Source of the DNA: Candidatus Brocadiia bacterium
GTDB lineage: Bacteria > Planctomycetota > Brocadiia > CAIUPP01
NCBI GenBank assembly: GCA_050015075.1
Contig: JBEKCB010000045.1
Coordinates: forward strand, 1-24,424
Reading direction: 5' to 3'
DNA: 24,424 nt
Positions 462 to 15,897 of the stretch are shown here, piece by piece. The notes beneath the pieces were generated by a model, which ran no database searches, had not been told where the DNA came from, and saw nothing but the letters and a program-made list of their open reading frames with translations. Each line of letters starts with the position of its first letter. Position 1 is the stretch's first letter. The translations under genes were made by a program, and so were the position numbers.

Positions 462-540
462 TCAGACTCCAAGGACTTTCAGGGCTACCCGGAATTTCGG
501 ATGGCCGCCCTCCACCTGATGGCCAGCCATCAAATGCCGG

Positions 541-569
541 ATTCTGACTTGGCGACTCCCGATTGTCAA
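541..569 (-). promoter_or_regulatory. sigma70-like promoter TTGACA-N17-CAGAAT (repeat copy A1)
   Basis: Perfect -35, 17-bp spacer, points to the ATG at 461. Confidence 0.7.
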
Positions 570-750
570 AGGGAAATCGCGCGGCGAAAGAAGGCCTCTG
601 CATTGACTGCCTCGACTACGATGCTCGTGTCGAAGGCGGGTCTGCTGCCGCCAGACCGGCACCGGGCGTAACTGAGAACACAGCCCGTATTTGAGCCACA
701 CTCGGCGCCTTGGAACTCTGTTCAAGACTGGCGGATCGCCGGAGAATTGC

Positions 751-779
751 TTGACGCGAGTAACCTCAGTCGTCAGACT
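751..779 (+). promoter_or_regulatory. sigma70-like promoter TTGACG-N17-CAGACT (repeat copy B1)
   Basis: Same geometry as the other copies, points to the GTG at 871. Confidence 0.6.
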
Positions 780-870
780 ACGACCTCTGACGCCTGGCCG
801 TCGCGTGGAGGGCGGCCATCTGAAATCCCAGGTACGATGCTGCGGTCGGGAAACAAGTTGGAGTGTTGCG

Positions 871-2067
871 GTGACGCACAAGGAGCGCATGCTGGCGACG
901 CTGCGCGGTGAGCCGACTGACGCGATTCCGTGGGCGCCGCGGCTGGACCTTTGGTACAACGCCCGCCAGCGCGCCGGCACGCTGCCGCCGAAGTATCGCA
1001 ACGCGGCGCTGTACGAGATCACCGACGATCTCGGCTGGGGCTTGCACGCGATCGTGCCGAACTTCAAGGACCTGCGCGACCCGGGCGATGACGCGCACCG
1101 CGCGCTGGGCGTTTACAATCTCTGGATGATGCCCTATGCAACGAAGTTCGAGGATGTTGACATCGCCGTGACGACTGAAGGCGACCGGACGCACGTGCGG
1201 TATCGCACGCCCGCCGGCTCCGTCTCGACGACGGTGGTGTATGACGAGAGCATGCGGCAGGCCGGCGCGACCATCACGCATATTTCAGAGCATGCGATCA
1301 AGGGCCGCCGGGACTACGCCGCCGTCGCGCACCTTTTCGACCACGCGCGCGTCGTGCCCAACGCACAGGGCTACGACGAATTCGCGGCGCGCGTTGGCCA
1401 GCGCGGGATGGCGTGCGCGGTCCTGAACGGGGCAGCCTCTCCGATGCACCTCCTGCAGCGCGAGCTGATGCCGATGGAGCTTTTCTTCTACGAGATGAAC
1501 GACCATCCCGACGAGTTGGCGAAGTGCGCGGAGAGCATCGGACGGTACTTCGAGCGCATGTTCGAGGTCGTCTCGAAATGCCCGGCGGACCTTTTCTTCC
1601 TCGGCGCGAACTACGACACGAACGTGACGTACCCGGCCTTCTTCCGCGCGCACATCCAGCCCTGGCTGAAGCGCTTCGCCGCCACGCTGCACGCGAAGGG
1701 GAAGTTCCTGCTGACGCACACCGACGGCGAGAACACCGGCCTGCTCGATTGCTACCTCAACAGCGCGATTGACGTGGCGGATTCCATCTGCCCCGCGCCG
1801 ATGACGAAGCTATCGTTTCGGCAGGTGCGCGACCACTTCGGCGGGCGGATCACGATCATGGGCGGAATTCCCTCGATCAGTCTGCTGAAGACTTCGATGT
1901 CGGACCGCGCGTTCGAGACCTACCTGGACGACTTCTTCTCGAACCTCGGCTCGGGCGATCATCTCATTCTAGGCATCTCCGACACCACGCCGCCCGGCGC
2001 GGAATTCGAGAGGCTTGAGCGCATTGCCGCCCGTACGCGCGCATTCGGGGCCGCGCGGCTGGGTTAG
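871..2067 (+). CDS. Uroporphyrinogen decarboxylase / MtaA-like family protein
   Basis: GTG start after GGAG. N-terminus MTHKERMLATLRGEPTDAIPW matches MTxRER...G..D.P; also HTDG, ITIMGGI and LILGISDTTPP at the C-terminus. Confidence 0.85.
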   Translation: MTHKERMLATLRGEPTDAIPWAPRLDLWYNARQRAGTLPPKYRNAALYEITDDLGWGLHAIVPNFKDLRDPGDDAHRALGVYNLWMMPYATKFEDVDIAVTTEGDRTHVRYRTPAGSVSTTVVYDESMRQAGATITHISEHAIKGRRDYAAVAHLFDHARVVPNAQGYDEFAARVGQRGMACAVLNGAASPMHLLQRELMPMELFFYEMNDHPDELAKCAESIGRYFERMFEVVSKCPADLFFLGANYDTNVTYPAFFRAHIQPWLKRFAATLHAKGKFLLTHTDGENTGLLDCYLNSAIDVADSICPAPMTKLSFRQVRDHFGGRITIMGGIPSISLLKTSMSDRAFETYLDDFFSNLGSGDHLILGISDTTPPGAEFERLERIAARTRAFGAARLG

Positions 2068-2127
2068 GCAGAGCGCCTTCGGCCGGGTGGATGGCTGATG
2101 AAGGGCCTGTTTCATAGGAGTTTTGTC

Positions 2128-3489
2128 ATGCTCAACATCGGCTTCGCATCGCGCGATATGACCCCGACGAGGCCCGCGATGCTCCAGGGCCAGATGCACC
2201 GGCGGATCGGCAGGAAGGCGCTTGACCCGGTCACCGTCAACGCGGTGGCGCTGGAGGACGATCAGACGAGAGAGAGCGCGGCGATAGTCTCCTGCGATCT
2301 CGCCCATCCCTCGGAAAACCTCTGTCGCGCGGTCCGCGAGCGCCTGCCTTCACGGTGTCCGGCGGCGCCGCGCGATCGGATGATCCTCGCGGCCACTCAT
2401 ACGCACACCTCCTTCGTCTTCGAGGAGGGATACTACGATCCTCCCGGCGGCGATGTCATGACGGCCGCCGAGTGCCGGGCGTGGATCGCCGAACACATCG
2501 CCCAGGCGGTTGTCGAGGCGTGGGAGCAGCGCAAGCCAAGGCGCCTCGCCCGCGCCTTCGGCCATGCCGTCGTCGGGCACAATCGTCTCGCGCTCTACGC
2601 CGACGGCCATGCGCAGATGTATGGAAAGACGGACCGGGACGACTTCGCCGGATTCGCCGGTTACGAGGACCACAGCCTCGACATGCTTTTCGCTTATGAG
2701 TCCGATGGCGCGCTCGCCGGCGTCGTCCTGGCGCTTCCCTGCCCTTCGCAGGAGACCGAGGAAATCGAGGAATTCTCCGCCGATTTCTGGCACGACATCC
2801 GGCTGGAGTTGCGCGAGCGGCTCGGCGGGCATCTGGCCGTGGTTGGCCTTTGCAGCCCCGCCGGAGACCAATCGCCGCACCGGCTCATCTACCAGGCGCA
2901 GGAGACGGAGATGCTCCAGCGCCGCGGGCTCTCCATGCGTCAGGAGATCGCCCGGCGTGTGGCCGACGCCGTGGATCGCGCGCTGGCCTGCACGCAGCCG
3001 GCGAAGGCCAAGGACTGGCCGTTGGTCGTTCGCGTCCGGCGCCTGGAATTAACCCGGCGCAAAATTACCCGAGCCGAGCGCGACTGGGCCGAGAAGACGC
3101 GCGCCGAATGGATCACCGGGAAGGGCGAATCGCAGTCCTGGTGGCCGACGCGCCAGCAAGTCGTTGTCGCCGGCTTCGACCACCCGCAGGAGGTCAAACC
3201 CTTCGAGATGGAGTTGCAGGTTTTGCGGCTGGGTGACATGGCGATCGCCGGCAACCCGTTCGAGCTGTTCCTCGACTACGGCCTTCAGATCAAGGCGCGC
3301 AGTCCCGCCGCGCAGACGATGCTGATTCAGCTCACCGGCGAGGGCATGTACCTGCCTTCCGCGCGATGCATGCAAGGGGGCGGCTACAGCGTTGTCCCCG
3401 CCGTCTCGGAGGTCGGTCCCGAAGGCGGCGCGGAACTGGTGAAGGAAACGCTCGCGACGATCAACGAGCTCTTCCCCGCGCAGGCGTGA
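2128..3489 (+). CDS. Neutral/alkaline ceramidase-like hydrolase (PVC-expanded family)
   Basis: AGGAG RBS. Motifs GFASRDMTP, IVSCDL, ILAATHTHTS, SADF, GDQSP, PFELFLDYGLQIKARSPA, YLPS...GGY. Confidence 0.75.
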   Translation: MLNIGFASRDMTPTRPAMLQGQMHRRIGRKALDPVTVNAVALEDDQTRESAAIVSCDLAHPSENLCRAVRERLPSRCPAAPRDRMILAATHTHTSFVFEEGYYDPPGGDVMTAAECRAWIAEHIAQAVVEAWEQRKPRRLARAFGHAVVGHNRLALYADGHAQMYGKTDRDDFAGFAGYEDHSLDMLFAYESDGALAGVVLALPCPSQETEEIEEFSADFWHDIRLELRERLGGHLAVVGLCSPAGDQSPHRLIYQAQETEMLQRRGLSMRQEIARRVADAVDRALACTQPAKAKDWPLVVRVRRLELTRRKITRAERDWAEKTRAEWITGKGESQSWWPTRQQVVVAGFDHPQEVKPFEMELQVLRLGDMAIAGNPFELFLDYGLQIKARSPAAQTMLIQLTGEGMYLPSARCMQGGGYSVVPAVSEVGPEGGAELVKETLATINELFPAQA

Positions 3490-4274: not shown

Positions 4275-5597
4275 TCACCGCTCTTTGGGTGCTGAGCATG
4301 ACCGCGCACCATCCTTGACACCGCGCCCAGGTCGAGAATTCCCCGCGACGACGGGTGGGCCTTCGTGCGGCTGAGCGAGTTGAGTCACCACGCCCAGCCA
4401 GCCCAGCAAGGCGGCGGCAATTACGGTGGGGAAGGTCACCATCGGCAACACAACAAACCGGCCCACGGCAGCCAGCCCGCTGGCCGTCACGCCTTTGGAC
4501 GCGCGATATACGAACGCGTCAATGATTTCCTTGGCGCGGTAACGGGCGTCGAACGATAGCGGGACGTACAGTAATTCCTTGACGGCGCGGAAGACGGAGT
4601 AGTCGAGCACCTTGAACACCAGATAACAGGCCGCAGCGGTCCAAAGCCCCGGATTTGCGAACACGGCCGCAACCATCCCCAGATGCACGAGCGGGATCGC
4701 CAGGTAGATGAGCCGGTGGGATACGAAGGCGAGCGAGAGCGGCGCGATCACGAATTGGCAGACAGCCGATGCCATGTTGAGCAGCGCGTAGAACCCACCG
4801 AACCACTGCGTGCGCAGGTCCGCCAGCGGCAGCGCCTTCTCCGCGTAGAGGCTCAACTGCAACTCCGCCACGGTGGAGACAACCTGGGTGAGGGCGATCA
4901 GCAGCGCCAGCCTCCGCAGGACCGGCTCACGCATGAGAGTGCGGAGGCCGAGATGCCCGTGCTGCCCGTGCGCCTCGTCCATGGCCGGCTTCGGCTCTCC
5001 GCCGGCCCGATAGGCCACAACCGCAAAGAGGCCCGTCGGCACGAACGTGATGGCAGCCAGGAGGAGCAGGTTGACGCTGCCGAACTGAGTGGCATAGTGT
5101 TGCACAAACAGTCCGCCTGTAATCGAGCCGAGGGATGCAATGCCGCAGACGGGTCCGTTGAGCTTGCTGCCCTCGTCGGTGCGGACGGTGCTGTTGATGA
5201 ACGACCAGACCTGCTCGACGAGGAGTACGATGTAGGCCTCGCGGAAAGCATAGAGCACCGCAGTAGCGGGCCTCGCGCCGGCGCGGATGCCGGCGAAGCA
5301 GCCCAGGATCACCAGCGCAGAGAACGCCGAGGTGGTCAGGATAGCGGCGCGCGGGCCGGTCACGGACAAAAGGCGGCCGTACGCGTAAATGAACGCCAGC
5401 GTGGCAAGGGTGCCCAACGCCATGACAATGGGCAGGTTTCTCGCGCCGTAGGCGGCGATGAAGAGGGAGACGGAGACGCTGCGAACTAACTCATAGCCGC
5501 ATAGCAGGAAAGCCGCCGAAACCGCAATGGCTGCTGTGGCGGCAAGTCGGCCCGTGCGAATGCCGAGAAACGAGCGCCCGGCGGGTGTAGATTCCAT
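4275..5597 (-). CDS. MFS-fold nucleotide transporter-like protein (Npt/TLC ATP/ADP translocase family)
   Basis: About 12 hydrophobic segments; YELVRSVSVSLF, VEQVWSFINS, KVLDYSVFRAVKELLYVPL and RYRAKEIIDAFVYRASK are typical of the family. Confidence 0.8.
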   Translation of the reverse strand: MESTPAGRSFLGIRTGRLAATAAIAVSAAFLLCGYELVRSVSVSLFIAAYGARNLPIVMALGTLATLAFIYAYGRLLSVTGPRAAILTTSAFSALVILGCFAGIRAGARPATAVLYAFREAYIVLLVEQVWSFINSTVRTDEGSKLNGPVCGIASLGSITGGLFVQHYATQFGSVNLLLLAAITFVPTGLFAVVAYRAGGEPKPAMDEAHGQHGHLGLRTLMREPVLRRLALLIALTQVVSTVAELQLSLYAEKALPLADLRTQWFGGFYALLNMASAVCQFVIAPLSLAFVSHRLIYLAIPLVHLGMVAAVFANPGLWTAAACYLVFKVLDYSVFRAVKELLYVPLSFDARYRAKEIIDAFVYRASKGVTASGLAAVGRFVVLPMVTFPTVIAAALLGWLGVVTQLAQPHEGPPVVAGNSRPGRGVKDGARSCSAPKER

Positions 5598-5643
5598 GTT
5601 GTTCGACACTCAGCTTTTCCTGTTCCGCGCAGAACCCTGGGGC

Positions 5644-6006
5644 TTATTCTGCCGCCCTCGTGCGCCGCCGTTTGCAGGAATCTATTCTCTCATTACACGA
5701 AGCCTTGTCCACAAGCCGGCTGCCGCGTGCAGTGAGTTCATGCCGTTGGCCTGACCCACCAACCACCCGGGACCCACTCGTGGTTACCAGCATGGCCTGT
5801 TCGCCTTCGCCCTCTAACCAGTAGCTAAATCCACCGCACATGCGTGGGATCGGGAACCAGGCTTTGGATTCTTTGGCCGTAAGCAGCGGCGTCAATTCCG
5901 GTAACGCGAGATGATGCTCATCGATGAGCTTGGCAGCCCAACCGCGAATGACTGCATGAAGGTGGTGCTCGATGGCCAGGAGCGCGGTTTGGGGAACTTG
6001 TACCAC
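5644..6006 (-). pseudogene. Degenerate C-terminal remnant of a conserved hypothetical protein (domain recalled from ankyrin-repeat proteins)
   Basis: WFPIPRMCGGFSYWL...SRVVGGSGQRHELT resembles a recalled WFPVPGMYGGF...CRVVGGSGQRHEI motif with substitutions; no clear start or RBS. Confidence 0.45.
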
Positions 6007-6132
6007 TTACAGCCCTCCATCGCCAATCGACAACGCAAGCGGGGCTCTGCATGAACAGGCGGCGGACCAGTCCAACGCCCTACCGGGCCCGAATTGCGCT
6101 GCCGCCTACAGGACTCTATGCGGCTTATCACC

Positions 6133-6888
6133 TCACAATAGTTGAGGCGCTACTTCCCTTCTCCATCGCTCATGCAAGCCCCACCACAACGGAGAGTAAT
6201 TTCCTAGTTTATCGGCTTGGCGCGGATGCACCAAGGGCAGCAGGCGCAGGTCGTGATCGCCCACCCGAATTGCATGGAGACGACCGTACTCTGCCGCAGT
6301 CTCTCCGTAGTCGCCAAGCCGATCCTCCGAACCGAAGTACTTCGTGAACCAGCGCAGCGGCTGGTCCCCGAGAGTAATGAGAACGCTCGCCGCCGACTGA
6401 TGAAGTTCTACTTCAATCTCCGAACGCCGCTGCTCGTCTGCCAGCTTCTTCGGTACAGTTGGCCACTGCGGTTTCGGCAGACCCAGTCTCTCCATTGCCT
6501 GCGCCTGTCTCTCGTTCATGCAGCTATGAGGCACGAGATCGCAAAGCCACGCCTTATGCCGGCATAGTCCGAGAGGGGCGAGGAACAGGCCATCCAGAGC
6601 CCTGCCGGACGGCCCGTTGAACTGGCTGCTCGCTGGCTCAAGCCGGCCAGCCCCTTCCGGCAGCGGCATTTGGCGCAAGATCTCTTCGACCTTATCGCCG
6701 CCCCAGAAGATCTCAGGTTCCGATGCAACGGCCAGCGCGTTGATACGCAACTTGCCATCCGGCCCGACCCAACGGGCATGTACCGCGCTTGCATAGACGC
6801 CGAGGACAAATACCTGCTTGGCGGTCTTGTCTCGCTGCACGACCGGGAGAATCGGCTGTCCGAACGGAAAAGTGCCAATGCCGCTCAT
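6133..6888 (-). CDS. Uracil-DNA glycosylase-like superfamily protein
   Basis: GGAGG RBS before ATG 6888. VFVLGVY, FNGPSGRALD, WLCDLVPH, VLITLGD and LLPLVHP follow the UDG motif order. Confidence 0.65.
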   Translation of the reverse strand: MSGIGTFPFGQPILPVVQRDKTAKQVFVLGVYASAVHARWVGPDGKLRINALAVASEPEIFWGGDKVEEILRQMPLPEGAGRLEPASSQFNGPSGRALDGLFLAPLGLCRHKAWLCDLVPHSCMNERQAQAMERLGLPKPQWPTVPKKLADEQRRSEIEVELHQSAASVLITLGDQPLRWFTKYFGSEDRLGDYGETAAEYGRLHAIRVGDHDLRLLPLVHPRQADKLGNYSPLWWGLHERWRREVAPQLL

Positions 6889-6953
6889 GTCGGGCCTCCA
6901 CATTTGGCGCCCGCGAGCAGGATCGCCAAAATGCCAATGCGCCTCTTGCTCAT
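6885..6953 (-). pseudogene. 22-codon signal-peptide stub MSKRRIGILAILLAGAKCGGPT*
   Basis: Strong GGAGGGG RBS, basic n-region plus hydrophobic h-region, and a stop overlapping the UDG-like start (ATGA). Confidence 0.45.
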
Positions 6954-7032
6954 CACGTCCCCCTCCACGTGCCGCCATGTTGCACCGGCGATGGCAGGAC
7001 TCTATCACGAGGCTCTGACAGCGACCAACGGG

Positions 7033-7079
7033 AAAAACTGCGAGCAGGGGGTTTCACTTCTGTGCCCCCGACTCTGCGG
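7033..7079 (-). terminator. Hairpin plus T5 downstream of the FGE-domain gene (terminator and/or DGR-type stem-loop)
   Basis: Minus strand CCGCAGAGTCGGGGGCACAGAAGTGAAACCCCCTGCTCGCAG-TTTTT. Confidence 0.55.
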
Positions 7080-8034: not shown

Positions 8035-8053
8035 GGCTCTCGTCTCTTCTCCA

Positions 8054-8166
8054 AGCCGGGATTTCCCAGAGGGCCCCCGTTCACATGACGGTCAGCCGTC
8101 CAATGTCGCATTCTGACAACCGAGATCGCAGCGATCAAGCAATTCCTCGGCGGTCTGCCAGTCTTT
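8054..8166 (-). repeat. Dispersed promoter-leader repeat, copy B2
   Basis: AAGACTGGCAGACCGCCGAGGAATTGC-TTGATC-N17-CAGAAT-GCGACATTGGACGGCTGACCGTCATGTGAACGGGGGCCCTCTGGGAAATCCCGGCT, homologous to 723-833. Confidence 0.88.
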
Positions 8167-8169: not shown

Positions 8170-9126
8170 TCACCCATTCGGAGCACCGCACTCTTGCAGT
8201 TGGCTGGCGATCAGGCTGGAGGCGAGCGCCTGCTGAGGAGTGGGCGTCAAGGGCGTTTTCATTTGCAGGGCGGCAACAAATGCTTCCATTTCTGCATAGG
8301 CGCCGCTGCTGACGAACTCCGGCTCGTCCGATGGTGAGGCATCCGCAAGCGCCAGCTTGCCGTCTTGCCAAATCTCAACCGACCACGGATGCACCGCGCC
8401 GGTCTTCACTTCCGCGATGAACTCGTCTCCGATGAGCCGGACCGTCTCCTCGACCTTGCCGGCGCAGGGTAGGATGGTGAGTTGAACGGAGACACCGCTT
8501 TTCCCGTGGAGAAGCGCCGTTCGACCGCATGCGCTTTCGCCATGGGTAACAACTTGCGGCGCCCCTTGCAACTCCAGGGGCCCCGCCACGTGGCACAACG
8601 CGTCGATCAGGTGCAGTCCGGTTCCCCAGACGAAATCCGGCTCCGCACGATGGGAACGCAGCATGCATCCTTCCACAAGGCGGATGCAGAGTCGCTCCCG
8701 CCCGATCCACTCAAGCGCCATCCGCAGCGCTGGATCGAACCGACGGTTCAGCGACACCATTACCGGCACGCCGGACGCCTCCACCGCCGCGACAATCTCC
8801 CGAGCTTCCGACAAGTTCCGCCCCAGAGGCTTCTCAATCAGCATGGGCAGCCGCCAGCGGAGATACTGCGGCGTCGCCTGGACCATGACAGGGATTGGAA
8901 GCACAACGACCAGGCCATCGAGCGCGGCGCCGCTTAACGCATCCAGGGACTGGACATGCTTCGCGAAGCCGTACTGCTCGGCCACGCGCGCCGCCTTGGC
9001 GAGGATCGGATCGCATACCGCCGTCAGCTCCACCTGCCCCGGGTGGCGCTCGGCCAACATGCGCAACGCGGGCGCATGCTGAGTCGCGCTATGGCTGCCT
9101 GCTCCGACCAATGCTACGCGCACCAT
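8170..9126 (-). CDS. Gfo/Idh/MocA family oxidoreductase
   Basis: RVALVGAGSHS Rossmann motif, LIEKPLG, SLNRRFDP, GLHLID. Confidence 0.9.
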   Translation of the reverse strand: MVRVALVGAGSHSATQHAPALRMLAERHPGQVELTAVCDPILAKAARVAEQYGFAKHVQSLDALSGAALDGLVVVLPIPVMVQATPQYLRWRLPMLIEKPLGRNLSEAREIVAAVEASGVPVMVSLNRRFDPALRMALEWIGRERLCIRLVEGCMLRSHRAEPDFVWGTGLHLIDALCHVAGPLELQGAPQVVTHGESACGRTALLHGKSGVSVQLTILPCAGKVEETVRLIGDEFIAEVKTGAVHPWSVEIWQDGKLALADASPSDEPEFVSSGAYAEMEAFVAALQMKTPLTPTPQQALASSLIASQLQECGAPNG

Positions 9127-9268
9127 GCCGGAATTTCCTTTGCTCTGGTCAGGAAACTTCCTGGGTAAGACGCCATCGCCACATTCTGACGCCTGAGGTC
9201 ACCTCGATCAAGCAATTCTTCAGCGGTCTGCTGCTCTTGAACGGGATTCAAGGTCGCTAAGCCCGGCT
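9127..9268 (-). repeat. Dispersed promoter-leader repeat, copy B3 (central leader replaced)
   Basis: CCTTGAATCCCGTTCAAGAGCAGCAGACCGCTGAAGAATTGC-TTGATC-N17-CAGAAT matches 708-779; the tail GGAAATTCCGGC is retained directly before the ATG at 9126. Confidence 0.85.
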
Positions 9269-9402
9269 GTAGCGGGACCGAATTGCAACGCCGCGTGCAG
9301 GAATCTACCCCGAGTCATTTCACATCTGTGTTGAAAACGTCACGATGAAGACGGCCCCTATATCGAGAGCTCTCCAAGGCTGCCAGAGCACTGGCAAGGG
9401 CC

Positions 9403-9485
9403 TTGACAGGAGCCGTATCGAGCGTACAATGTCGCTTCAGGAAGGGACAGCCCCACGGGGAACAGCCAAATGAGAAATCCCGGCT
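9403..9485 (+). promoter_or_regulatory. sigma70 promoter TTGACA-N16-TACAAT with a degenerate repeat tail
   Basis: Near-consensus hexamers. The tail TGAGAAATCCCGGCT matches the repeat end at about the same distance from the -35. Confidence 0.6.
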
Positions 9486-9553
9486 CAAGAGCTTGGACGG
9501 ATCGTCGCCCCGTGAGTGTTTCGGTCCCCATTTTCGCAGTCTCCCCAGATGTG

Positions 9554-9581
9554 TTGACGAAAATCCCGGCCGGTTTACAAT
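9554..9581 (+). promoter_or_regulatory. Second sigma70-like promoter TTGACG-N16-TACAAT for the GH5 gene
   Basis: Near-consensus hexamers ~46 bp before the ATG at 9628. Confidence 0.55.
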
Positions 9582-9627
9582 GCCGCACGAGCAGGCCGCC
9601 CAAAGGATGGTCAGAGGAGAAATCCGG

Positions 9628-10773
9628 ATGACAGCGGGCGTGCGCGGGTTGGCGAGAGAATATTCGCGCCGGGAATTCCTGAAGCTGGGAGCGGCCATCG
9701 CGGCAGCGGGCATGGTTCTGCCGGGCGCCTTTGCCGGGCAGGCGGCCCGAGACGATAGGACAGACTCTGCGCCGAAAGGAGCGGGCAAAGTGAACGCGTC
9801 GAAACTCCCGCGCTGGCGGGGATTCAATCTGCTGGAGAAGTTCGTCGCGCAGGATAGCGCCCCGTTCCGCGAGCAGGACTTCGAGTGGATCCGGGAATGG
9901 GGGTTCGACTTTGTGCGCCTGCCCATGTCTTACCTCTGCTGGACGGATGCAGGGGACCGGCTCAAGCTACGCGAGGACGTGCTCAAGCAAATTGATCAGG
10001 CCGTGGAATTCGGCCGCCGGTACGGCGTGCACGTTAACATGAACTTCCATCGCGCCCCCGGATACTGCGTCAATCCGAACCCCCCGGAGCCGTTCGATCT
10101 GTGGAGCAGCGACGAGGCGTTGAACGCATGCGCGTTCCACTGGGGGCATTTTGCCAAGCGATACCAAGGCATTCCAAATGAGCGGGTGAGCTTCGACCTC
10201 GTCAACGAGCCGGGCAACATCCCCGAGGCCACCTACGTGCGCGTCGTCAAGCGGCTGGTCGAGGCGATCCGCGCTGAGGACCCCGGCCGGCTGATCATCG
10301 CCGACGGGCTGTTCTGGGGGCGCAATCCCGTCAACGGGCTGGCGGAACTCGGGATCGCCCAGAGCACGCGCGGATACGATCCGATGCAGGTCAGCCACTA
10401 CAAGGCCTCGTGGATCGGCGGTTCGGACAAATGGCCCGAGCCGACCTGGCCGCTGAAACTGGGCCCGAGGGACGTCTGGGACAAGGAGCGGCTGCGCAGG
10501 GAAAGGGTCGAGCCGTGGAAGACGCTTGAGCGCGCTGGAGTGGGAGTGCACGTCGGCGAATGGGGAGCGTTCCAGTGTACGCCGCACAACGTCGTGCTCG
10601 CCTGGATGCGCGACAATCTCGCGCTGTGGAAGGAAGCCGGCTGGGGCTGGTCGCTGTGGAATTTCCGAGGCTCGTTCGGCGTCCTGGACAGCAACCGGGC
10701 GGACGTGAAATACGAGGAGTTCCGCGGGCACAAACTCGACCGCGAGATGCTGGAGGTGCTAAAGGCGTCTTAG
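9628..10773 (+). CDS. Tat-exported glycoside hydrolase family 5 (cellulase-like)
   Basis: GAGGAG RBS, SRREFLK Tat motif, WRGFNL, FDFVRLP, FHRAPG, acid/base NEP, nucleophile GEWG, WSLWNF. Confidence 0.92.
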   Translation: MTAGVRGLAREYSRREFLKLGAAIAAAGMVLPGAFAGQAARDDRTDSAPKGAGKVNASKLPRWRGFNLLEKFVAQDSAPFREQDFEWIREWGFDFVRLPMSYLCWTDAGDRLKLREDVLKQIDQAVEFGRRYGVHVNMNFHRAPGYCVNPNPPEPFDLWSSDEALNACAFHWGHFAKRYQGIPNERVSFDLVNEPGNIPEATYVRVVKRLVEAIRAEDPGRLIIADGLFWGRNPVNGLAELGIAQSTRGYDPMQVSHYKASWIGGSDKWPEPTWPLKLGPRDVWDKERLRRERVEPWKTLERAGVGVHVGEWGAFQCTPHNVVLAWMRDNLALWKEAGWGWSLWNFRGSFGVLDSNRADVKYEEFRGHKLDREMLEVLKAS

Positions 10774-10814
10774 CAGAAAGCTGTCTTGCCGCTGGGAAAA
10801 TCGGGTTCATATCA

Positions 10815-11033
10815 TTAACGGCGCCGCAGACGAGATCGTTCGTGAGAAAGAAAGCGTGGAGCCGCCCGCTTGCCAATCGGCGTTTCCTTCCCGATCCGGG
10901 TCTTGAGCCAGCCGCCAAGCTCCAGGATATACTGGAACTCCTCCGCCGCGTAGTCCCAGCGGTAATTGTTGCAGAGCGCATGGGCTGGAAGGTAGTTCTC
11001 CGCCGAGTCGCCACTATCTGCGCTGTGCGCTAA
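10815..11033 (-). pseudogene. C-terminal remnant of an HNH endonuclease
   Basis: Startless frame LAHSADSGDSAENYLPAHALCNNYRWDYAAEEFQYILELGGWL...RRR* keeps the H..G...N(YL)..H..CN signature. Confidence 0.7.
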
Positions 11034-11181
11034 GTGTCACGCGATAGCGCGATGCGCCGGAAGTCCGTTGCCGCAATGTCGCCGCCGCGCGCTTCGGAGC
11101 CATGGTGTGCGAAGACGATGGTCCGGCGCCAATGCGAAAGACTTCCCTGAGCGAATTGAACGTCAGTGGTTCCGACGTCAT
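11032..11181 (-). pseudogene. sdaA: N-terminal remnant of L-serine dehydratase
   Basis: MTSEPLTFNSLREVFRIGAGPSSSHTMAPKRAA...YRVTL carries the IGxGPSSSHT signature and breaks off before the expected YGSL. Coupled to the upstream stop (ATGA). Confidence 0.8.
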
Positions 11182-11927
11182 TTCCCCTTTTTGCGAACCC
11201 AGGCCAGGTATTCCGACGGCGTCATGAAGACGCAGCCCTTCGACTTGAGGAACTCGACGATTCTCTCGAAGCCTTCCCACTTCGTCTCGACTTTCCAAAG
11301 GTCTGGATGCCCCTGAAGGACGAGCATGTCGAGACCGGCGGCCAGTTTCTTGTACGTTCTCTCAAATTTCTTGAAGTCCGGCACGAAGATTGGATCTTCC
11401 AAACTCATCACCCGCGGGAGGCTCAGCCGGCTGAAATACTTCGGCTTCTTCGGGCCGCAGAGCCAAATCTTGACTTGGGGCACGGCCTCGAGGGCCCTGT
11501 CGGTCGCCTCGGTGGTTGAACTCCAGTGCGGACCGAACGCGGCGAACTCGAACCCAAGCTTCTCCCTGGCGAGTCTCTCGCAGCGGTCCAGCAGGGCCTT
11601 GTGTTCCTGCCAAGTTCCCTGTTCGAATTCCCCGGTCTTGTCCTCGGGATGTCGAGCATGGGTGCGGTAACCGTGGAGCCAGAACTCCACGGCGCCATTC
11701 TTGTGATGCTCCTTGATCCACTTGAAATAGGCCGGTTGATCGCCCTCCAGCGAATCACAGATGACGCCGGAAGAAGCCTTCAGGTGGTTCTTCTCGATGT
11801 AATCGGTCACGCGCCGCCATCGCGGTGAGACTGGACCGCCGCCGTTCGCGCCCAATTCAATAACATCGTCGAACTTAAAGATGATGACCTGCGCCTTGGC
11901 TGAAGAGACGGGCTTCCGCTTCTTCAT
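11178..11927 (-). CDS. Polysaccharide deacetylase-like protein (CE4/DUF2334-like)
   Basis: FKFDDV, FWLHGYxxH, FGPHW, LVLQGHP, FMTPSEY. Confidence 0.75.
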   Translation of the reverse strand: MKKRKPVSSAKAQVIIFKFDDVIELGANGGGPVSPRWRRVTDYIEKNHLKASSGVICDSLEGDQPAYFKWIKEHHKNGAVEFWLHGYRTHARHPEDKTGEFEQGTWQEHKALLDRCERLAREKLGFEFAAFGPHWSSTTEATDRALEAVPQVKIWLCGPKKPKYFSRLSLPRVMSLEDPIFVPDFKKFERTYKKLAAGLDMLVLQGHPDLWKVETKWEGFERIVEFLKSKGCVFMTPSEYLAWVRKKGK

Positions 11928-12077
11928 GATGCCGTTCTTCCCATTTCACGGCTTTGAATGTCAGATGTCTCGCAGTCCGGCATCGCAGCCGCACGGACAT
12001 ACCTGCGGACAACAAACAAAACCATCGGCGGCGACGCAAGCCGACGCCCAAGAGCCGCATGGCGCGGAGACAGCCAT

Positions 12078-13250
12078 CTACCTGATCCGATAGAGATGCA
12101 CATCCCAGTCGCCAAAGTGGTCCTGAAACTTGCCCTCCGCCGGTTCGATCTTCCGGCCTTCGCCGAGGACTTCGACCTGCGCGCCGGCAGGGAGAGCGTC
12201 GAGGGTGAAAGTGGCTTCCGCCGCGCCGGGCTTCATAGCGACGGCAAAGACGTATGTCGCACCGCCCTGCTTCTTAACCATGGTCGCCACCGGCACGTCC
12301 TTGTTCGAGGATTCCACCTTGAGCGCGTCCTTGACGGTGGGGCTGTTCAGCGCAGGGGCGAGTTCATGGACCTGCTGGTTGAGCGCCGTCACGGCAGCGA
12401 GCATCTGAGGATCGTCCAGGAGCGCATGGTCGTTCTCGGGCTTGAATTCATGGCAGAAATAGACGATTCCCTGGCTTCCGTGCACCAGGCTCATCCAGAC
12501 TTCCGCTTTGACCTGCTTCGGCGTTGCCTTGGTACGCGACTCGATCCGCGTGCATTCGATGCAGTTCCAGGCAATCTTGCGCCCGCCGGTCCACTTGACC
12601 AGCCGCTCGACGCCATGGGCGACGAAATCCAGCTTGCCTTTGACCTGCGGGTTATTGTGCACTACGGGGTAGATATCGAACGAGGCAATATCGCATCCCT
12701 TGATGTACTCGGCATAGTCCTCGGGATGGTTGGTGCGCACGCCGCGGCCATTGTAGCCGTCCCAGGCGACGCCCTGACCGAGATTGAGGAGCACCGGTCG
12801 GGAGGGATCCGCCTTGCGGAGCGCTTCGTATTCCGCAACAATCTTGGCCGGCAAAATGGGCGGCCCGTAGCCATTGCCCCCCGGCAGATCCTGGGCGTTG
12901 TCGGGTTCGTCGCCGTGCATCCAGCCGACAATGATCGGATCATCCTTATGGGCCAGACCCACGACATTCTGGTCGCAGATGGCCGGCATTCCGTATTTCT
13001 TGAGCTCAGCCAGATCAGGTTCGGTCGGCTCCAGGCCGACGTAAAGATTGATGCCCGCCTTCTTGTACCTTGGCGCATCTCTCGGCTCCTGCAGCCAGAC
13101 GGCGATGGGGAAGAATGAGGCATCCTTCGGCGGCCCATTCTTCCATTGCGCATAGGGATTAGAGGACTCAGGTTTAGCTTCGTCAGCGCCGACCGCTATC
13201 GTCGCAGCCAGCAGGATTACGGATGCGGTCAGAACTCGCTGCCATATCAT
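12078..13250 (-). CDS. Secreted putative glycoside hydrolase (clan-A-like TIM barrel)
   Basis: AGGAGG RBS, signal peptide, FFPIAVW, WMHGDEPDN, SFDIYP, WMSLVHGSQGIVYF. Confidence 0.7.
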   Translation of the reverse strand: MIWQRVLTASVILLAATIAVGADEAKPESSNPYAQWKNGPPKDASFFPIAVWLQEPRDAPRYKKAGINLYVGLEPTEPDLAELKKYGMPAICDQNVVGLAHKDDPIIVGWMHGDEPDNAQDLPGGNGYGPPILPAKIVAEYEALRKADPSRPVLLNLGQGVAWDGYNGRGVRTNHPEDYAEYIKGCDIASFDIYPVVHNNPQVKGKLDFVAHGVERLVKWTGGRKIAWNCIECTRIESRTKATPKQVKAEVWMSLVHGSQGIVYFCHEFKPENDHALLDDPQMLAAVTALNQQVHELAPALNSPTVKDALKVESSNKDVPVATMVKKQGGATYVFAVAMKPGAAEATFTLDALPAGAQVEVLGEGRKIEPAEGKFQDHFGDWDVHLYRIR

Positions 13251-13597
13251 CTTCGTTCCTCCTTTTCATTAGGTTATCTTGGTCCATGTCCAGGGCAGCC
13301 GGCGGCTGCGGCGCTTCGCGGCGGACAATCCCCGTTCCAGCTTTCCTCCCGTTCTTAGACCGTCATATCAGCCTCCCTTTCTGCCGTTGCCCACGCCGTG
13401 CGAGTGCGGCCCCGGTAGCTATCCGTTGCCGCCCCATGTCGCCGGTGCATTTTACCTCACGCCTCTGACAGCCGCCAATCGGGCCCTGAGAAAACCTGAT
13501 ATTCAGCGGCCCGGACGCTGCCGTTGCCGCGCAGACATCCCGATTACCGTTCACTCTCATGCAAGTAAATACGGATCTTAACATGTGGTACGCCCAC

Positions 13598-13796
13598 AGG
13601 GGCACACGCGGGCGTATCGTTTCCCAGAACAACACGACGAAGTCAGTCAGGCCTTTGTCACCGCAGTCCAGGCGGCTGAAGCGGAGGCCTTCTTTCGCCG
13701 CGTGGCTTCCCCTTGACAAGGGGGATTCTGATTGTCAGAATCCGACGTTTGATAGGTGACCGTCATGTGAATGGCGAGCATCTGAGAAATTCAGGT
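13598..13796 (+). repeat. Dispersed promoter-leader repeat, copy A2
   Basis: GAGGCCTTCTTTCGCCGCG is identical to the reverse complement of 580-598; TTGACA(13713)-N17-CAGAAT; leader GTGACCGTCATGTGAATGGCGAGCATCTGAGAAATTCAGGT. Confidence 0.9.
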
Positions 13797-14040
13797 CAAG
13801 GTCTCACGCGCGCTCTCTCGCGCCGGCCTGCCCATTCATGGCGCCCCGGCCGGCCTCAACTGGATTCATCTCATCGAGGCAGGGAGTTTTAGGAGAAGAG
13901 CACGGCCGCCTAGCAAGCCGACCTGGCCGTCCTCCTGTGCGATCAGGCCGGCGCGACTGCCTGTTCCGTGTCCGAGGGCGCGCAATGGTATTGCCGGAGA
14001 AACCTTGAGAAGGCCCGACCGACCCGCATCGCTTAACCTC

Positions 14041-15390
14041 ATGTTAATCAACCAGGCGCCGTTGGCGGCAAGCGCCGCCGCACTGCGCAACGGCACGCTG
14101 GACTTGATGCGATATCTCGGCGAAGTCTGCGACCGTATCGAAGCGTTCGAGCCGACCGTGCAAGCGCTGGCGCCGGAGCCGAATCGCCGGGCGCGCCTGC
14201 TGCGCGAGGCAGCCGAGCTGCAGCGCAGGCATCCGAAGCCGGAGGGTCGCCCTTTGCTCTACGGAGTCCCGCTGGGGGTGAAAGACATCTTCCACGCGCA
14301 GGGCTTCGCGACGCGCGCCGGAACCCAATTGCCGAGCGACCTGTTCCCCGGCGATGAGGCGTCGTGCGTCGCTATGCTCCGAGCGGCAGGCGCACTGGTC
14401 CTGGGCAAGACGGTGACGACGGAGTTCGCCTACGCGGAACCCGGGCCGACTCGCAACCCGCACAATCCGGCCCATACGCCCGGCGGCTCCAGCAGCGGCT
14501 CCGCCGCGGCCGTAGCGGCAGGTTTCTGTCCGCTGGCGATCGGCACGCAGACGGTCGGCTCGACGATCCGCCCCGCGGCGTTCTGCGGGATCATCGGGTA
14601 CAAGCCGAGCTTCGGGCGCATCCCAACGGCCGGGGCGATCACCTTCGCCTCTTCAGCCGACCACGTTGGCCTTTTCACGCGGGACGCGGCCGGCATGGCG
14701 CTGGCTGCTTCGATCCTGTGCCGCGATTGGCGGGCATCACGCGAGCCGCCCGACGAAGCGCGGCGCGATTCGCGGCGAGCGCTCCCCACGTTCGGCGTGC
14801 CCGACGGCCCCTACCTCCAACAGGCCTCGAGCGCGGCGTTGGAGGCGTTCGACAGGCAACTCGAGTCGCTCAGGTCCGCCGGCTATCCAATCCGGCACGT
14901 GCGGATGCTCGAGGACATCGGCGCGATCAATCGGCGCCATTGGCGCATGTGCGCCGCTGAACTGGCGCAGGCTCACGCCGTTTGGTTTGCCCGGTACGAG
15001 GATCTCTACCGCCCCCGGACCGCCGCGCTGATTCGGGAGGGTCAGAGCGTCGGCGCCGACGAATTGGCGGCCGCCCGCGCCGCGAGAATCGAGCTGCGGA
15101 GGAAACTGGAACGCCGGATGGCTGAGGAGAGAATTGACCTGTGGGTCTGTCCCGCGGCGACGGGGCCGGCGCCCGAAGGGCTTGACTACACCGGCGATCC
15201 GAGCATGAACCTGCCCTGGACACACGCCGGCGTGCCCGCAGTGACCCTTCCCGCCGGCCGGGCGGCGAACGGGCTGCCGCTCGGCCTGCAGTGCGTGGCG
15301 AAGTTCATGAACGACGAGGAGTTGCTCGTCTGTGCTGAGCAACTGGAGCGGATCTTTAACTTCCATCCGCCGTCTCAGGCGCGAATCTGA
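14041..15390 (+). CDS. Amidase signature family protein
   Basis: GVPLGVKD, GKTVTTEFA, TPGGSSSGSAAAVA, GTQTVGSTIRPAAFCG, GLPLGLQ. Confidence 0.93.
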   Translation: MLINQAPLAASAAALRNGTLDLMRYLGEVCDRIEAFEPTVQALAPEPNRRARLLREAAELQRRHPKPEGRPLLYGVPLGVKDIFHAQGFATRAGTQLPSDLFPGDEASCVAMLRAAGALVLGKTVTTEFAYAEPGPTRNPHNPAHTPGGSSSGSAAAVAAGFCPLAIGTQTVGSTIRPAAFCGIIGYKPSFGRIPTAGAITFASSADHVGLFTRDAAGMALAASILCRDWRASREPPDEARRDSRRALPTFGVPDGPYLQQASSAALEAFDRQLESLRSAGYPIRHVRMLEDIGAINRRHWRMCAAELAQAHAVWFARYEDLYRPRTAALIREGQSVGADELAAARAARIELRRKLERRMAEERIDLWVCPAATGPAPEGLDYTGDPSMNLPWTHAGVPAVTLPAGRAANGLPLGLQCVAKFMNDEELLVCAEQLERIFNFHPPSQARI

Positions 15391-15697
15391 GCGCCCCCGA
15401 GCACCGGTTCGTGAACCACGGCTTCCTTCGAAAACATAAACAATAGACACGTTGTCTCTGCCCATCGAATGGAGTAAGAACAGCGGAGGGCGTGTTTGAT
15501 CCTGAGAGTTCCGAGGACGCGCGACCTGTCCTTGACGTCGGTGGCCACGGAAGATCGAGAACAGGCCGAAGCCGTCCGCTTGCGCATTATTTTCTTCTCG
15601 GTGACCATCAGGGCGGCCAGGTTCGACGGGAGAAAGACGTTGGCCAAATAGGCACTACGACAAAGCGCTCCGAATCCTCGTTCCCATTATGCTCAAG

Positions 15698-15897
15698 AAG
15701 GGCGCGCGTGGGCGGATCGTCTTACAAAACATCGGCGTGCGCACCTGTTGACGGGTAACTCCTTGTAATACCCCGCGCGACTTCCCATTGACAAACGGGA
15801 TTCTGAGCGTCAGAATACGACATTTTGATGGCTGAATGCCATGTGGACGACCTGCCCGACGGGCATGTGGACAGCGGCCCTCCGGGAAATTTCGGGT
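15698..15897 (+). repeat. Dispersed promoter-leader repeat, copy A3 (internal 24-bp duplication)
   Basis: CCGCGCGACTTCCCA-TTGACA(15788)-N17-CAGAAT...GATGGCTG...CATGTGGAC x2...GGAAATTTCGGGT. The upstream block GGGCGCGCGTGGGCGGATCGTCTTACAAAAC matches 13599-13630. Confidence 0.88.

What the first reader, a model, noticed from the sequence alone, without database searches (positions are those of the whole stretch)
487..15897. Dispersed 'portable promoter-leader' element in front of unrelated island genes
Seen: six clear copies (487-~690 minus, ~701-833 plus, 8054-8166 minus, 9127-9268 minus, 13598-13796 plus, 15698-15897 plus) and one degenerate copy (9403-9485 plus). The clear copies share TTGAY.-N17-CAGAmT followed by roughly nCGaCaTTtGAtGGCTGrCCgTCAtGTGrAngGCGGCCaTCtGrAAATyyCrGGT. 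The spacer varies in sequence but is always 17 bp, as expected of a maintained sigma70 promoter. Every copy points into a gene, and five end 0-40 bp from its start codon. The downstream genes are unrelated (two URO-D-like, FGE domain, Gfo/Idh/MocA, amidase, GH-like). Upstream flanks fall into two classes: A (...CCGCGyGryTTCCC) and B (...AAGAstrGCrGAyCGCyGrrGAATTGC). Inference: homology of 85-200 bp is far more than a shared operator needs. It suggests a mobile promoter, or the recombination and expression site of a gene-cassette capture system that builds the island one gene at a time. I do not recognise it as attC, dif, REP or a known IS end.
Basis: partly seen in the sequence, partly recalled or inferred. 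Interest (0 to 1): 0.88.

Follow-up and report, generated by a model that had tools for sequence, protein, structure and literature searches.

The report
Genome-wide portable promoter-leader modules
The repeat is a roughly 100-base promoter plus mRNA leader that sits in front of about 140 unrelated genes across this peat bacterium's genome, and it looks like reusable regulatory DNA that is copied and swapped between genes rather than a gene-capture site.

Summary
A seventh copy (9389-9489) and an eighth, degenerate one (9554-9632) also exist.

The element is not island-bound. An iterated nhmmer profile finds 138 copies (E<1e-4) across the 4.64-Mb genome. Of these, 115 lie within 300 nt upstream of a same-strand gene and none faces an opposite-strand gene at that distance.

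The 111 downstream proteins scanned match 115 Pfam families, with at most 3 proteins per family. There are three subfamilies with different spacers and a shared leader.

Many copies occur only in this genus: 93 and 90 matches (capped), 4 in a sister genus, 0-1 elsewhere in 132 genomes of the class.

Between the two congeners, 11 of 17 orthologous sites share an element and 6 do not. Two shared sites carry different subfamilies, and breakpoints fall at module edges.

There was no Rfam match, no recombinase nearby and no attC, TIR or TSD features. No RNA data were available.

Best reading: a propagated sigma70 promoter-leader module family. The cassette-capture idea is not supported.

The parts
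485..586 (-). Copy 1 (subfamily A flank). TTGACA-N17-CAGAAT at 569-541, then the leader. It ends about 26 nt before the ATG at 461 of ORF 3-461 (-).
   Evidence: nhmmer E 1.4e-20, pattern match, sequence read. Conserved with its gene in G001 at 93%.
735..838 (+). Copy 2 (subfamily B). It lies divergent from copy 1 and in front of the URO-D-like ORF 691-2067 (+).
   Evidence: nhmmer E 9.2e-21, pattern match 751-779, Pfam URO-D.
8050..8155 (-). Copy 3 (subfamily B), in front of the FGE-sulfatase-domain gene 7126-8034 (-).
   Evidence: nhmmer E 3.2e-25, Pfam PF03781 7e-55. The G001 ortholog keeps the part from the -10 onward but has unrelated sequence upstream and a 27-nt insertion.
9123..9228 (-). 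Copy 4 (subfamily B promoter with a degenerate leader). Its 3' motif AAGGAAATTCCGG is followed after one base by the ATG at 9126 of the Gfo/Idh/MocA gene 8170-9126 (-).
   Evidence: nhmmer E 1.6e-12, pattern match 9183-9211, sequence read, Pfam PF01408.
9389..9489 (+). Copy 7 (subfamily C), TTGACA-16-TACAAT plus leader. It is the first of two tandem modules upstream of the GH5 gene.
   Evidence: nhmmer E 9.4e-13, promoter scan 11 of 12.
9554..9632 (+). Eighth, degenerate copy (C-like), TTGACG-16-TACAAT. Its leader remnant ends in GAGGAGAAATCCGG directly before the ATG at about 9629, which opens the TAT signal peptide of the GH5 protein.
   Evidence: Promoter scan 10 of 12, sequence read, TAT signal and GH5 Pfam matches in ORF 9403-10773. 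It did not reach significance with the profile.
13696..13801 (+). Copy 5 (subfamily A), with the palindrome ATTCTGA-N3-TCAGAAT across the -10. It lies about 209 nt upstream of the amidase gene 14005-15390 (+).
   Evidence: nhmmer E 2.9e-24, Pfam amidase 1e-73. The G001 amidase ortholog (92%) lacks the element, and homology starts at window position 13909.
15771..15902 (+). Copy 6 (subfamily A), with a roughly 24-nt insertion carrying its own small hairpin. It lies about 20 nt before the GH123-like gene 15918-18254 (+).
   Evidence: nhmmer E 7.2e-21, sequence read, alignment, Pfam GH123 domains.

Best explanation
The repeat is a compact regulatory module of about 100-120 nt. It runs from about 20 nt upstream of a TTGACA -35 box, through a 16-17-nt spacer and a (C/T)AnAAT -10 box, to a roughly 55-nt transcribed leader with consensus TTTGAwrGC-GACyGTCC-ttTGGA-GGACGGyC-AAATGGsAAATyCCGG. 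The leader stops just before the gene's own ribosome-binding site.

About 140 diverged copies drive about 3-4% of this genome's genes. These are mostly lower-GC genes for secreted hydrolases and other accessory enzymes.

There are three subfamilies. They differ in the spacer and -10 region and share the leader:
- A has a 9-bp-arm palindrome over the -10, which is a likely repressor operator.
- B has a different conserved spacer.
- C has a classical TAnAAT.

Inferred origin: the copies descend from each other by copying, because 40-75 bits of shared information in front of unrelated genes cannot plausibly arise site by site. They have since diverged to about 62% identity.

Inferred turnover: modules are gained, lost and exchanged in front of orthologous genes by recombination, with breakpoints at or inside the module and no dedicated recombinase.

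Inferred, weakly: the leader acts as RNA. A short stem-loop holds an SD-like GGAGG, and two GGA motifs could serve mRNA stability or a CsrA-type regulator.

Shown: the sequence family, its orientation, its distribution and its turnover. Not shown: transcription starts, regulator identity and the copying mechanism.
For: - Family size and orientation: 138 hits at E<1e-4. Of these, 115 lie within 300 nt upstream of a same-strand gene and 0 face an opposite-strand gene at that distance. Random intergenic positions split 227 to 219 of 810.
- Promoter signal: TTGAC is nearly invariant (127-131 of 131), as are A-AAT positions. The window holds 6 pattern matches against 0.05 expected and 12 promoter-like sites against 2.5 in shuffles.
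- Downstream genes are unrelated: 115 Pfam families among 111 proteins, at most 3 per family.
- Downstream genes are enriched for signal-peptide-like N-termini, 59 of 113 against 28% of 3383 (odds ratio 2.9, p 4e-8). They also have lower GC, 62.9% against 65.0% (crude predictor and crude gene set).
- Sharp 5' edge: information falls to background 20-30 nt upstream of the -35 in all three subfamilies.
- 3' edge: the final CCGG lies a median of about 22 nt before the first in-frame start, and 49 of 64 lie within 40 nt.
- Subfamilies. The A palindrome has at least 6 of 9 complementary positions in 28 of 29 copies, against a mean of 1.9-2.9 in B and C.
- Lineage restriction: 93 and 90 matches (capped) in G000 and same-genus G001, 4 in G002, one each in G015, G123 and G031, and none in the other genomes of 41 and 132 searched.
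- Turnover: of 17 orthologous sites compared between G000 and G001, 11 carry an element in both and 6 in one only.
- Turnover examples: a clean 155-nt presence/absence difference at C25:40804-40958; different subfamilies at C25:33019 and C6:73111; promoter halves replaced at the FGE gene and at C13:68332; an extra tandem module in G001.
- Orthologous elements are 74% identical (925 positions) against 91% for adjacent coding DNA.
- Contigs from four other peat runs bridge all window copies without differences.
- RNA hints: leaders fold better than shuffles (mean z -0.71, 84 copies), and the sense strand is 2.3 kcal/mol more stable than the antisense strand.
- A CsrA homolog exists at C16:81214-81366.
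Against: - There is no transcript evidence, so promoter activity and the transcription start are predictions only.
- No copy pair exceeds 86% identity and the within-subfamily median is 62%. That level is about what shared functional constraint alone would keep, so descent by copying is an argument from information content and not from near-identical copies.
- Neighbouring copies are not clearly more alike than distant ones (0.639 against 0.618, p 0.06).
- No terminal inverted repeats were seen, no target-site duplication was seen at the one clean indel, and no associated enzyme was found. The copying mechanism is therefore unknown.
- That indel also includes 47 nt of a different REP-like repeat.
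- RNA structure is weakly supported. RNAalifold predicts nothing on 44 copies. My two hairpins pair in 76.3% of cells against 74.4% in shuffles, with a covariation score reached by 31 of 500 shuffles.
- The mini-ORF reading fails as a general feature. Only 39 of 76 copies have a canonical start, its frame relative to the gene is random (28/22/26), and its stop is no closer to the gene start than in copies without a start codon (11 of 26 against 7 of 22).
- The orthologous sites compared were those I happened to fetch, not a random sample.
- The gene set is a home-made GC3/ORF caller.
Confidence: 0.6

Rival explanations
1. These are ordinary regulons. Three transcription factors (and possibly one post-transcriptional regulator) each control 30-55 promoters. 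The 100-nt likeness reflects selection on a fixed promoter-operator-leader layout and not copying or mobility.
For: - Subfamily-specific conservation sits in the spacer, where RNA polymerase needs none. The subfamily A palindrome is present in 28 of 29 copies.
- Pairwise identity of about 62% fits constraint alone.
- 11 of 17 orthologous sites keep an element in both genomes.
- Target genes share a theme: they are enriched for secreted proteins.
Against: - Known regulons share a 14-22-bp site at variable positions, not a fixed 100-nt unit with sharp edges. That comparison is from my own knowledge.
- Profile scores of 40-75 bits per copy are far more than site-by-site evolution should assemble in front of 113 unrelated genes.
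- Orthologous genes carry different subfamilies at 2 sites, and 6 of 17 sites differ in presence.
- The family is abundant in one genus and nearly missing in its sister genera.
- This rival is partly compatible with the best explanation, because copied modules can still form regulons.
Confidence: 0.25
2. The conserved part that matters is a new cis-regulatory leader RNA, either a riboswitch-like element or the target of an RNA-binding protein. The promoter is merely carried along with it.
For: - The leader is shared by all three promoter subfamilies and by copies in other genera.
- Leaders fold better than shuffles, and the sense strand is more stable than the antisense.
- There is a U-G pair in the subfamily C stem, and several copies carry extra hairpin insertions at one position.
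- GGA motifs and a CsrA gene are present.
Against: - Rfam gives 0 matches at E up to 1.
- RNAalifold finds no consensus structure.
- Covariation is near the shuffle level.
- About a third of copies lack the 3' part of the leader (gap counts).
- Leader-only copies could not be separated with confidence, because the half-models have too little power.
Confidence: 0.1
3. The copies are remnants of a MITE or IS-derived element with an outward-facing promoter, as with Correia elements. Transposition has ceased.
For: - The family is dispersed, has many copies and is restricted to one lineage.
- One clean 155-nt indel separates the two congeners.
- The same genome does hold true hairpin repeats of 88-94% identity.
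Against: - No terminal inverted repeats appear in the profile or alignments.
- No target duplication was seen at the indel.
- A transposon would not be expected to have such strict orientation towards genes and a fixed distance to start codons.
- There was no match in the plasmid or phage collections.
- ISfinder was not available.
Confidence: 0.04
4. An integron-like capture system, in which the repeat is the recombination site where cassettes are inserted one at a time.
For: - Gene order in the window is not syntenic with the congener, and single genes with their leaders behave as units.
- Breakpoints fall at or in the element.
Against: - No integrase was found in the window, and none lies within 10 kb of any copy by my comparison of coordinates.
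- Copies lie 5' of genes on both strands and all over the genome.
- There is no attC-like imperfect palindrome.
- Breakpoints are not at one fixed position.
Confidence: 0.01

Closest known systems
Putative mobile promoters (PMPs; Nijveen, Matus-Garcia and van Passel 2012, PMC3575422; I read part 1 of 2 of the text, through the start of the reference list. The underlying NAR paper is not held.)
   Same: Highly similar upstream regions lie in front of non-paralogous genes within one genome. They are not tied to a known mobile element, have no Rfam match and have no known way of moving.
   Different: - According to that paper, PMP families are mostly pairs sharing about 92% identity over at least 50 nt.
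- Here one family has about 140 members at a median of 62% identity and three subfamilies.
- The conserved unit spans the -35, the -10 and a 55-nt leader.
- Turnover is documented at orthologous sites in two congeners.
Correia elements of Neisseria, which are MITEs that carry promoters. The features listed here are recalled; the elements are cited in PMC3575422.
   Same: Short dispersed repeats present in a hundred or more copies that can supply promoters to neighbouring genes.
   Different: Correia elements have terminal inverted repeats, a TA target duplication and fairly uniform copies, and they insert in either orientation (recalled). None of these features was found here.
Multi-copy cis-regulatory leaders such as T-box and riboswitch families
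   Same: A conserved 5' leader stands in front of many different genes in one genome, with variable hairpin insertions.
   Different: - There is no Rfam match.
- There is no convincing covariation.
- The promoter upstream of the transcript is co-conserved, which an RNA element does not require.
- 140 copies is far above the usual copy number, to my knowledge.
Integron attC sites and gene cassettes
   Same: Single genes flanked by a recurring short sequence, in a region of poor synteny.
   Different: The repeat lies 5' of the genes and carries the promoter. It occurs on both strands and genome-wide. There is no IntI and no attC-type palindrome.

Membership tests
Sigma70-type promoter | -35 TTGACA and -10 TAnnnT hexamers separated by 16-18 nt | tested here: met
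   TTGAC is present in 127-131 of 131 copies and the A and T of the -10 are nearly invariant. The window has 6 matches against 0.05 expected. The scan finds the copies at 569-541 (-), 13713-13741 (+), 15788-15816 (+) and 9403-9430 (+), and the eighth copy at 9554-9581 (+), at 10-11 of 12.
Sigma70-type promoter | Transcription starts 5-9 nt after the -10 | not testable with these tools
   No RNA data could be laid on the window.
Putative mobile promoter (PMP) | Upstream regions at least 80% identical over at least 50 nt in front of non-paralogous genes (criterion as stated in PMC3575422) | tested here: met
   All 15 best pairs listed reach 82-86% over at least 50 aligned columns, although the family median is 62%. 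Downstream proteins fall in 115 Pfam families among 111.
Putative mobile promoter (PMP) | Evidence of movement independent of the gene | tested here: met
   6 of 17 orthologous sites differ in presence between G000 and G001, and 2 carry different subfamilies. The sites were not sampled at random.
Integron cassette site (attC) | An IntI-type tyrosine recombinase next to the array | tested here: not met
   No Phage_integrase match in the 20 window ORFs. The genome has 7 matches, none on contig C45.
Integron cassette site (attC) | An imperfect palindromic site at the 3' end of each cassette, with cassettes in one orientation | tested here: not met
   Copies lie 5' of genes and on both strands. 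No element-wide inverted repeat was found.
MITE / IS end | Terminal inverted repeats and a target-site duplication | tested here: not met
   No TIR appears in the consensus or alignments. The clean 155-nt indel shows no duplication. ISfinder was not available. There was no match in plasmids or phages.
Rfam RNA family / riboswitch | A match to a curated covariance model | tested here: not met
   0 matches at E up to 1 over the whole window, both strands.
Structured cis-regulatory RNA (new) | A conserved secondary structure supported by covariation | tested here: inconclusive
   RNAalifold gives no structure. My hairpins pair in 76.3% of cells against 74.4% in shuffles. Folding z is -0.71 and the sense strand is more stable than the antisense.
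Transcription-factor regulon operator | A palindromic site at a fixed place in the promoter | tested here: inconclusive
   Subfamily A has ATTCnGA-N3-TCnGAAT with at least 6 of 9 complementary positions in 28 of 29 copies. No such palindrome was found for B or C. No regulator was identified.

The most novel reading that the evidence does not exclude
This would be a transposase-free, genus-wide 'plug-in expression adaptor'. It is a promoter-operator-leader module in three interchangeable regulatory flavours, recruited in front of newly acquired or accessory genes (lower GC, secreted enzymes). Modules are shuffled between genes by recombination at their edges. Whole sets of foreign genes are thereby wired into host regulons, and gene-sized units are rearranged. 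That would be a new kind of mobile regulatory element and a mechanism for domesticating horizontally acquired genes.
Probability: 0.25. Interest if true: 0.85.

Novelty: new variant of a known kind. Interest (0 to 1): 0.64.

Why it matters
How bacteria give newly acquired or reshuffled genes a working, regulated promoter is poorly understood. Catalogues of re-used promoters mostly list pairs of near-identical sequences.

This case is different. One family of about 140 modules covers 3-4% of a genome's genes. It has defined edges from the UP region to just before the ribosome-binding site, and three regulatory subtypes on one common leader. Two sister species show direct evidence of modules being gained, lost and exchanged in front of the same gene.

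If confirmed, it gives a tractable natural system for studying promoter propagation and regulon growth. It also offers a set of compact, insulated promoter-leader parts from an uncultured peat lineage.

It also matters for annotation. The family marks likely transcription units and true start codons in these genomes.

Tried and rejected
- **Rfam.** A scan of the window at E up to 1 found nothing.
- **RNA structure.** RNAalifold on 44 copies gave no structure. Mutual information among leader columns showed subfamily signal and no helices. My two hairpins were barely above shuffles.
- **Mini-ORF idea (SD-7nt-ATG GGA AAT CCC GGN TGA, 'MGNPG').** It was attractive for subfamily C, and 20 of 93 copies have exactly 5 codons. 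I rejected it as a general feature. Only 39 of 76 copies have a canonical start, the frame relative to the gene is random, and stop-to-start distances are no better than in copies lacking a start codon.
- **RBS idea for the 3' motif.** It holds for a few copies (the copy at 9123-9228, the eighth copy at 9554-9632, and C15:98107). Usually, though, the gene has its own SD 15-30 nt further on.
- **Link to other repeats.** A 146-nt double-hairpin repeat lies next to 0 of 138 copies. A REP-like hairpin repeat lies next to 3 of 138.
- **Leader-only and promoter-only profiles.** They were too weak to separate the halves.
- **Local duplication.** Nearby copies are not significantly more alike than distant ones (p 0.06).
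- **Plasmid and phage collections.** No match.
- **Taxonomy.** The genome-contig scan with the FGE protein gave only distant hits; the best was 55% to a Phycisphaeraceae MAG.
- **Literature.** Three searches found the PMP commentary. Their listings showed no title describing this element.
- **RNA runs.** No RNA holder was listed, so no expression test was possible.
- **Genes dropped from the Pfam count.** Two of the 113 downstream genes (L163:4-5976 and L177:4-4485) were left out because of a size limit, and they were never scanned.
- **Caps on match counts.** Match counts are capped by the number of candidates scored (90 and 28 per genome).

Full report

Yes. The repeat finder recovers the copies as direct families D5 and D6 and inverted pairs I1-I5. 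These are 53-127 nt long and 70-83% identical.

Dinucleotide shuffles give 0.05 matches. The seventh copy has TTGACA-16-TACAAT.

Reading on, I found an eighth, degenerate copy at about 9554-9632. It lies in tandem behind the seventh and directly before the TAT-signal start of the GH5 gene.

Pfam confirms that the genes behind the copies are unrelated. They include a URO-D-like protein, an FGE-sulfatase domain, Gfo/Idh/MocA, GH5, an amidase and a GH123-like protein. The truncated ORF 3-461 had no match, so 'two URO-D-like' is unverified.

Contigs from four other peat metagenome runs bridge every copy in 7000-16500 with no differences. Examples are pieces 7839-8441, 8632-11232 and 12900-16500 of run X4. 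The arrangement is therefore not an assembly artefact. These runs may belong to one campaign.

**2. Scope**

The window is a whole contig (C45) of a 4.64-Mb, 66-contig, roughly 65% GC genome.

- A profile built from the seven copies already hits more than 100 places.
- After two iterations there are 138 hits at E<1e-4 and 158 at E<1e-2. They lie on at least 25 contigs.
- The window is a dense spot, with 2.87 copies per 10 kb against 0.30 genome-wide.

The element is therefore not an island feature.

**3. Orientation and position**

I used a home-made GC3/ORF gene set of 3383 genes.

- 115 of 138 copies lie within 300 nt upstream of a gene on the same strand.
- None faces the end of an opposite-strand gene at that distance.
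- 20 are further away and 3 lie inside ORFs.
- Random intergenic positions split 227 to 219 of 810.

The last CCGG of the element lies a median of about 22 nt before the first possible in-frame start codon, and 49 of 64 lie within 40 nt. Typically the gene's own AGGAG-like site lies in between.

Upstream, information content falls to background 20-30 nt before the -35 in every subfamily.

The unit is thus sharply bounded. It runs from about -55 to about +60 and stops in front of the ribosome-binding site.

**4. Anatomy**

The strongest columns are TTGAC (127-131 of 131) and the G-T-(C)-A-n-A-A-T block.

A simple rule based on the spacer and the -10 splits the copies into three subfamilies.

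| Subfamily | Copies | Promoter region |
|---|---|---|
| A | 29 | TTGACAAGCGGGATTCtGAnnGTCAGAATcCGACA |
| B | 54 | TTGACggggGtGACCTCaGTCGTCAGAATAtGAC |
| C | 55 | TTGACAGCGGgCAaTTCGAGCGT-AnAATCTCAtG |

In A, the spacer is the mirror of the -10 region. At least 6 of 9 positions of ATTCnGA-N3-TCnGAAT are complementary in 28 of 29 copies, against a mean of 1.9 in B and 2.9 in C. This looks like an operator for a dimeric repressor.

All three subfamilies share the leader TTTGAwrGC-GACyGTCC-ttTGGA-GGACGGyC-AAATGGsAAATyCCGG.

About a third of copies, mostly in B, lack the 3' third of the leader (gap counts). Several copies carry a 25-60-nt insertion with its own hairpin at one position.

**5. Is the leader an RNA element?**

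The evidence is weak and mixed.

- Rfam gives nothing at E up to 1.
- RNAalifold gives no consensus on 44 copies.
- My two hairpins are paired in 76.3% of cells against 74.4% in shuffles, and 31 of 500 shuffles reach the observed covariation score.
- Column correlations reflect subfamilies rather than helices.
- On the other side, 84 leaders fold better than dinucleotide shuffles (mean z -0.71). The sense strand is on average 2.3 kcal/mol more stable than the antisense strand. The copies are not independent, so those p-values overstate.
- The subfamily C stem keeps a U-G pair (20 UG, 19 CG, 2 UA).
- The genome has a CsrA homolog, and the leader has two GGA-type motifs about 15 nt apart. This is only a lead.

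A mini-ORF (MGNPG-stop) behind an SD-like GGAGGA is striking in subfamily C, and 20 of 93 copies have exactly five codons. It is not general, however. Only 39 of 76 copies have a canonical start. The frame relative to the gene is random (28/22/26). The stop is no nearer the gene start than in copies without a start codon.

**6. What lies downstream?**

There are 113 distinct genes. I scanned 111 of them; two very long ones were dropped for a size limit.

- They match 115 Pfam families, with at most three members in any family. Among these families are esterases, GH1, GH4, GDSL lipases, peptidases, beta-helix proteins and biosynthetic enzymes. The likeness of the upstream regions is therefore not a by-product of gene duplication.
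- With a crude test, 59 of 113 have a signal-peptide-like N-terminus, against 28% of all 3383 ORFs (odds ratio 2.9, p 4e-8).
- Their GC is lower, 62.9% against 65.0%.

The family therefore marks accessory genes, many of them for secreted proteins.

**7. Distribution**

I built a sequence-only covariance model from 44 copies.

- It finds 93 matches in G000 and 90 in the same-genus genome G001.
- It finds 4 in the sister genus G002 and none in G003 of the same family.
- It finds single matches in G015, G123 and G031 of another family.
- It finds none in the remaining genomes of the 41 relatives and the 132 genomes of the class that were searched.
- The out-group copies are recognisably subfamily A or C modules. 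One of them precedes a serpin gene.
- An exact subfamily-A promoter pattern occurs on 49 JGI metagenome contigs. These hold 91 elements in 343 kb, and 40 of the 49 match G000 at 77-100% identity. They were not checked for overlap with G000.

**8. Age and turnover**

Within subfamilies the median pairwise identity is 62% and the maximum is 86%. There are no near-identical pairs, so there has been no recent burst.

I compared G000 with G001, where genes are about 87-96% identical. The window itself is poorly syntenic. Only four of its genes have orthologs in G001, and these lie on four different contigs.

Across the 17 orthologous sites I could examine, 11 have an element in both genomes and 6 in only one.

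- At C25:40804-40958, G000 has 155 nt that G001 lacks, with clean junctions and no target duplication. The stretch is 47 nt of a REP-like repeat plus a complete subfamily A module.
- The amidase gene has the module in G000 but follows another gene directly in G001.
- At C25:33019 and C6:73111 the same gene is preceded by a C module in G000 and an A-type module in G001. Homology resumes at the 3' motif or in the leader.
- At the FGE gene, homology stops inside the spacer, and G001 has no -35.
- At C13:68332 homology stops near the predicted transcription start, and here G000 lacks the promoter half.
- At C30:1598, G001 has an extra A module in tandem.

Orthologous elements are 74% identical (925 aligned positions, 10 pairs), against 91% for the coding DNA next to them. 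Some pairs are as unlike as random family members. This points to replacement rather than point mutation.

**9. What it is not**

- Not an integron-like system. There is no integrase in the window. The seven tyrosine-recombinase matches in the genome are on other contigs or far from copies. Copies are 5' of genes on both strands, and breakpoints are not fixed.
- Not a recognisable MITE. There are no terminal inverted repeats, no target duplication, strict orientation towards genes, and no plasmid or phage match. ISfinder was not available.

**10. Best reading**

This is a genus-specific family of promoter-leader modules of common descent. They act as sigma70 promoters with subfamily-specific operator-like spacers and a common 5' leader. 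Recombination at or within the module recruits, loses and exchanges them in front of unrelated, mostly accessory genes.

The closest published concept is the 'putative mobile promoter' of Nijveen, Matus-Garcia and van Passel. I read part 1 of 2 of the commentary PMC3575422, through the start of its reference list; the NAR paper is not held. By that paper's account most PMP families are near-identical pairs. This family is far larger and older, is structured into subtypes, and comes with comparative evidence of turnover. I therefore rate it a new variant of a known kind.

The main rival is that these are simply three large regulons kept alike by selection. It is not excluded and is partly compatible, because copied modules can form regulons.

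**11. Limits**

- There is no transcript evidence.
- Gene calls and the signal-peptide test are crude.
- The orthologous sites were chosen by availability.
- The organism is an unnamed peat MAG.

Noticed in passing
window 21574-21817 (inverted pair I6); also G000 C25:54203-54350: A roughly 146-nt repeat made of two long perfect-looking hairpins (REPIN-like). BLAST gives 56 HSPs in G000 at a median of 93% identity. The 46-row listing shows 34 near-full-length matches at 87-94% in G001. It is much younger than the promoter family and is next to 0 of 138 promoter modules.
   Followed up: partly
G000 C25:32846-33005 and C25:40804-40850: A second REP-like repeat with the hairpin GTCATTCCCGCG...CGCGGGAATGAC followed by TTTTTCAACAGC. 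It has 26 loci in G000. It lies directly upstream of 3 of 138 promoter modules and forms part of the 155-nt presence/absence difference with G001.
   Followed up: partly
window 5651-5698, 6085-6132, 6971-7017, 9274-9321 (minus strand): A different upstream motif, ATAGAkTCCTGyAnnCGGCGnnGCAA (family D3). It has four copies in the window and only three weaker matches elsewhere in the genome. It may be a local operator or promoter for the genes at 4275-7008 and the region upstream of the promoter copy at 9123-9228.
   Followed up: partly
window 12078-13250 (-) and G001:C57:12007-24871: The weakly GH42-like gene of the window has about ten tandem paralogs at 74-81% identity on one G001 contig, and further copies elsewhere. 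Peat-run contigs pile up on this gene and show a head-to-tail joint 13254>12077. This suggests a tandem array in the population.
   Followed up: no
G001 L042:1503-1711 (G001:C81) and window 9389-9632: Modules can stand in tandem. In G001 an A module is followed by a C module with no spacer between them. In the window there are two C-type modules before the GH5 gene.
   Followed up: partly
G000 C25:41254-43628 versus G001 L212:14691-16616: The gene behind the C25:40856 module is highly internally repetitive, with dozens of staggered BLAST alignments at 69-82%.
   Followed up: no
window 2098-3489, 4275-5609, 5644-6006, 11958-13118: Several long ORFs of the window have no Pfam match at E up to 0.001. 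The 2098-3489 ORF has paralogs at 78% in G001 and at 67% in G003.
   Followed up: no
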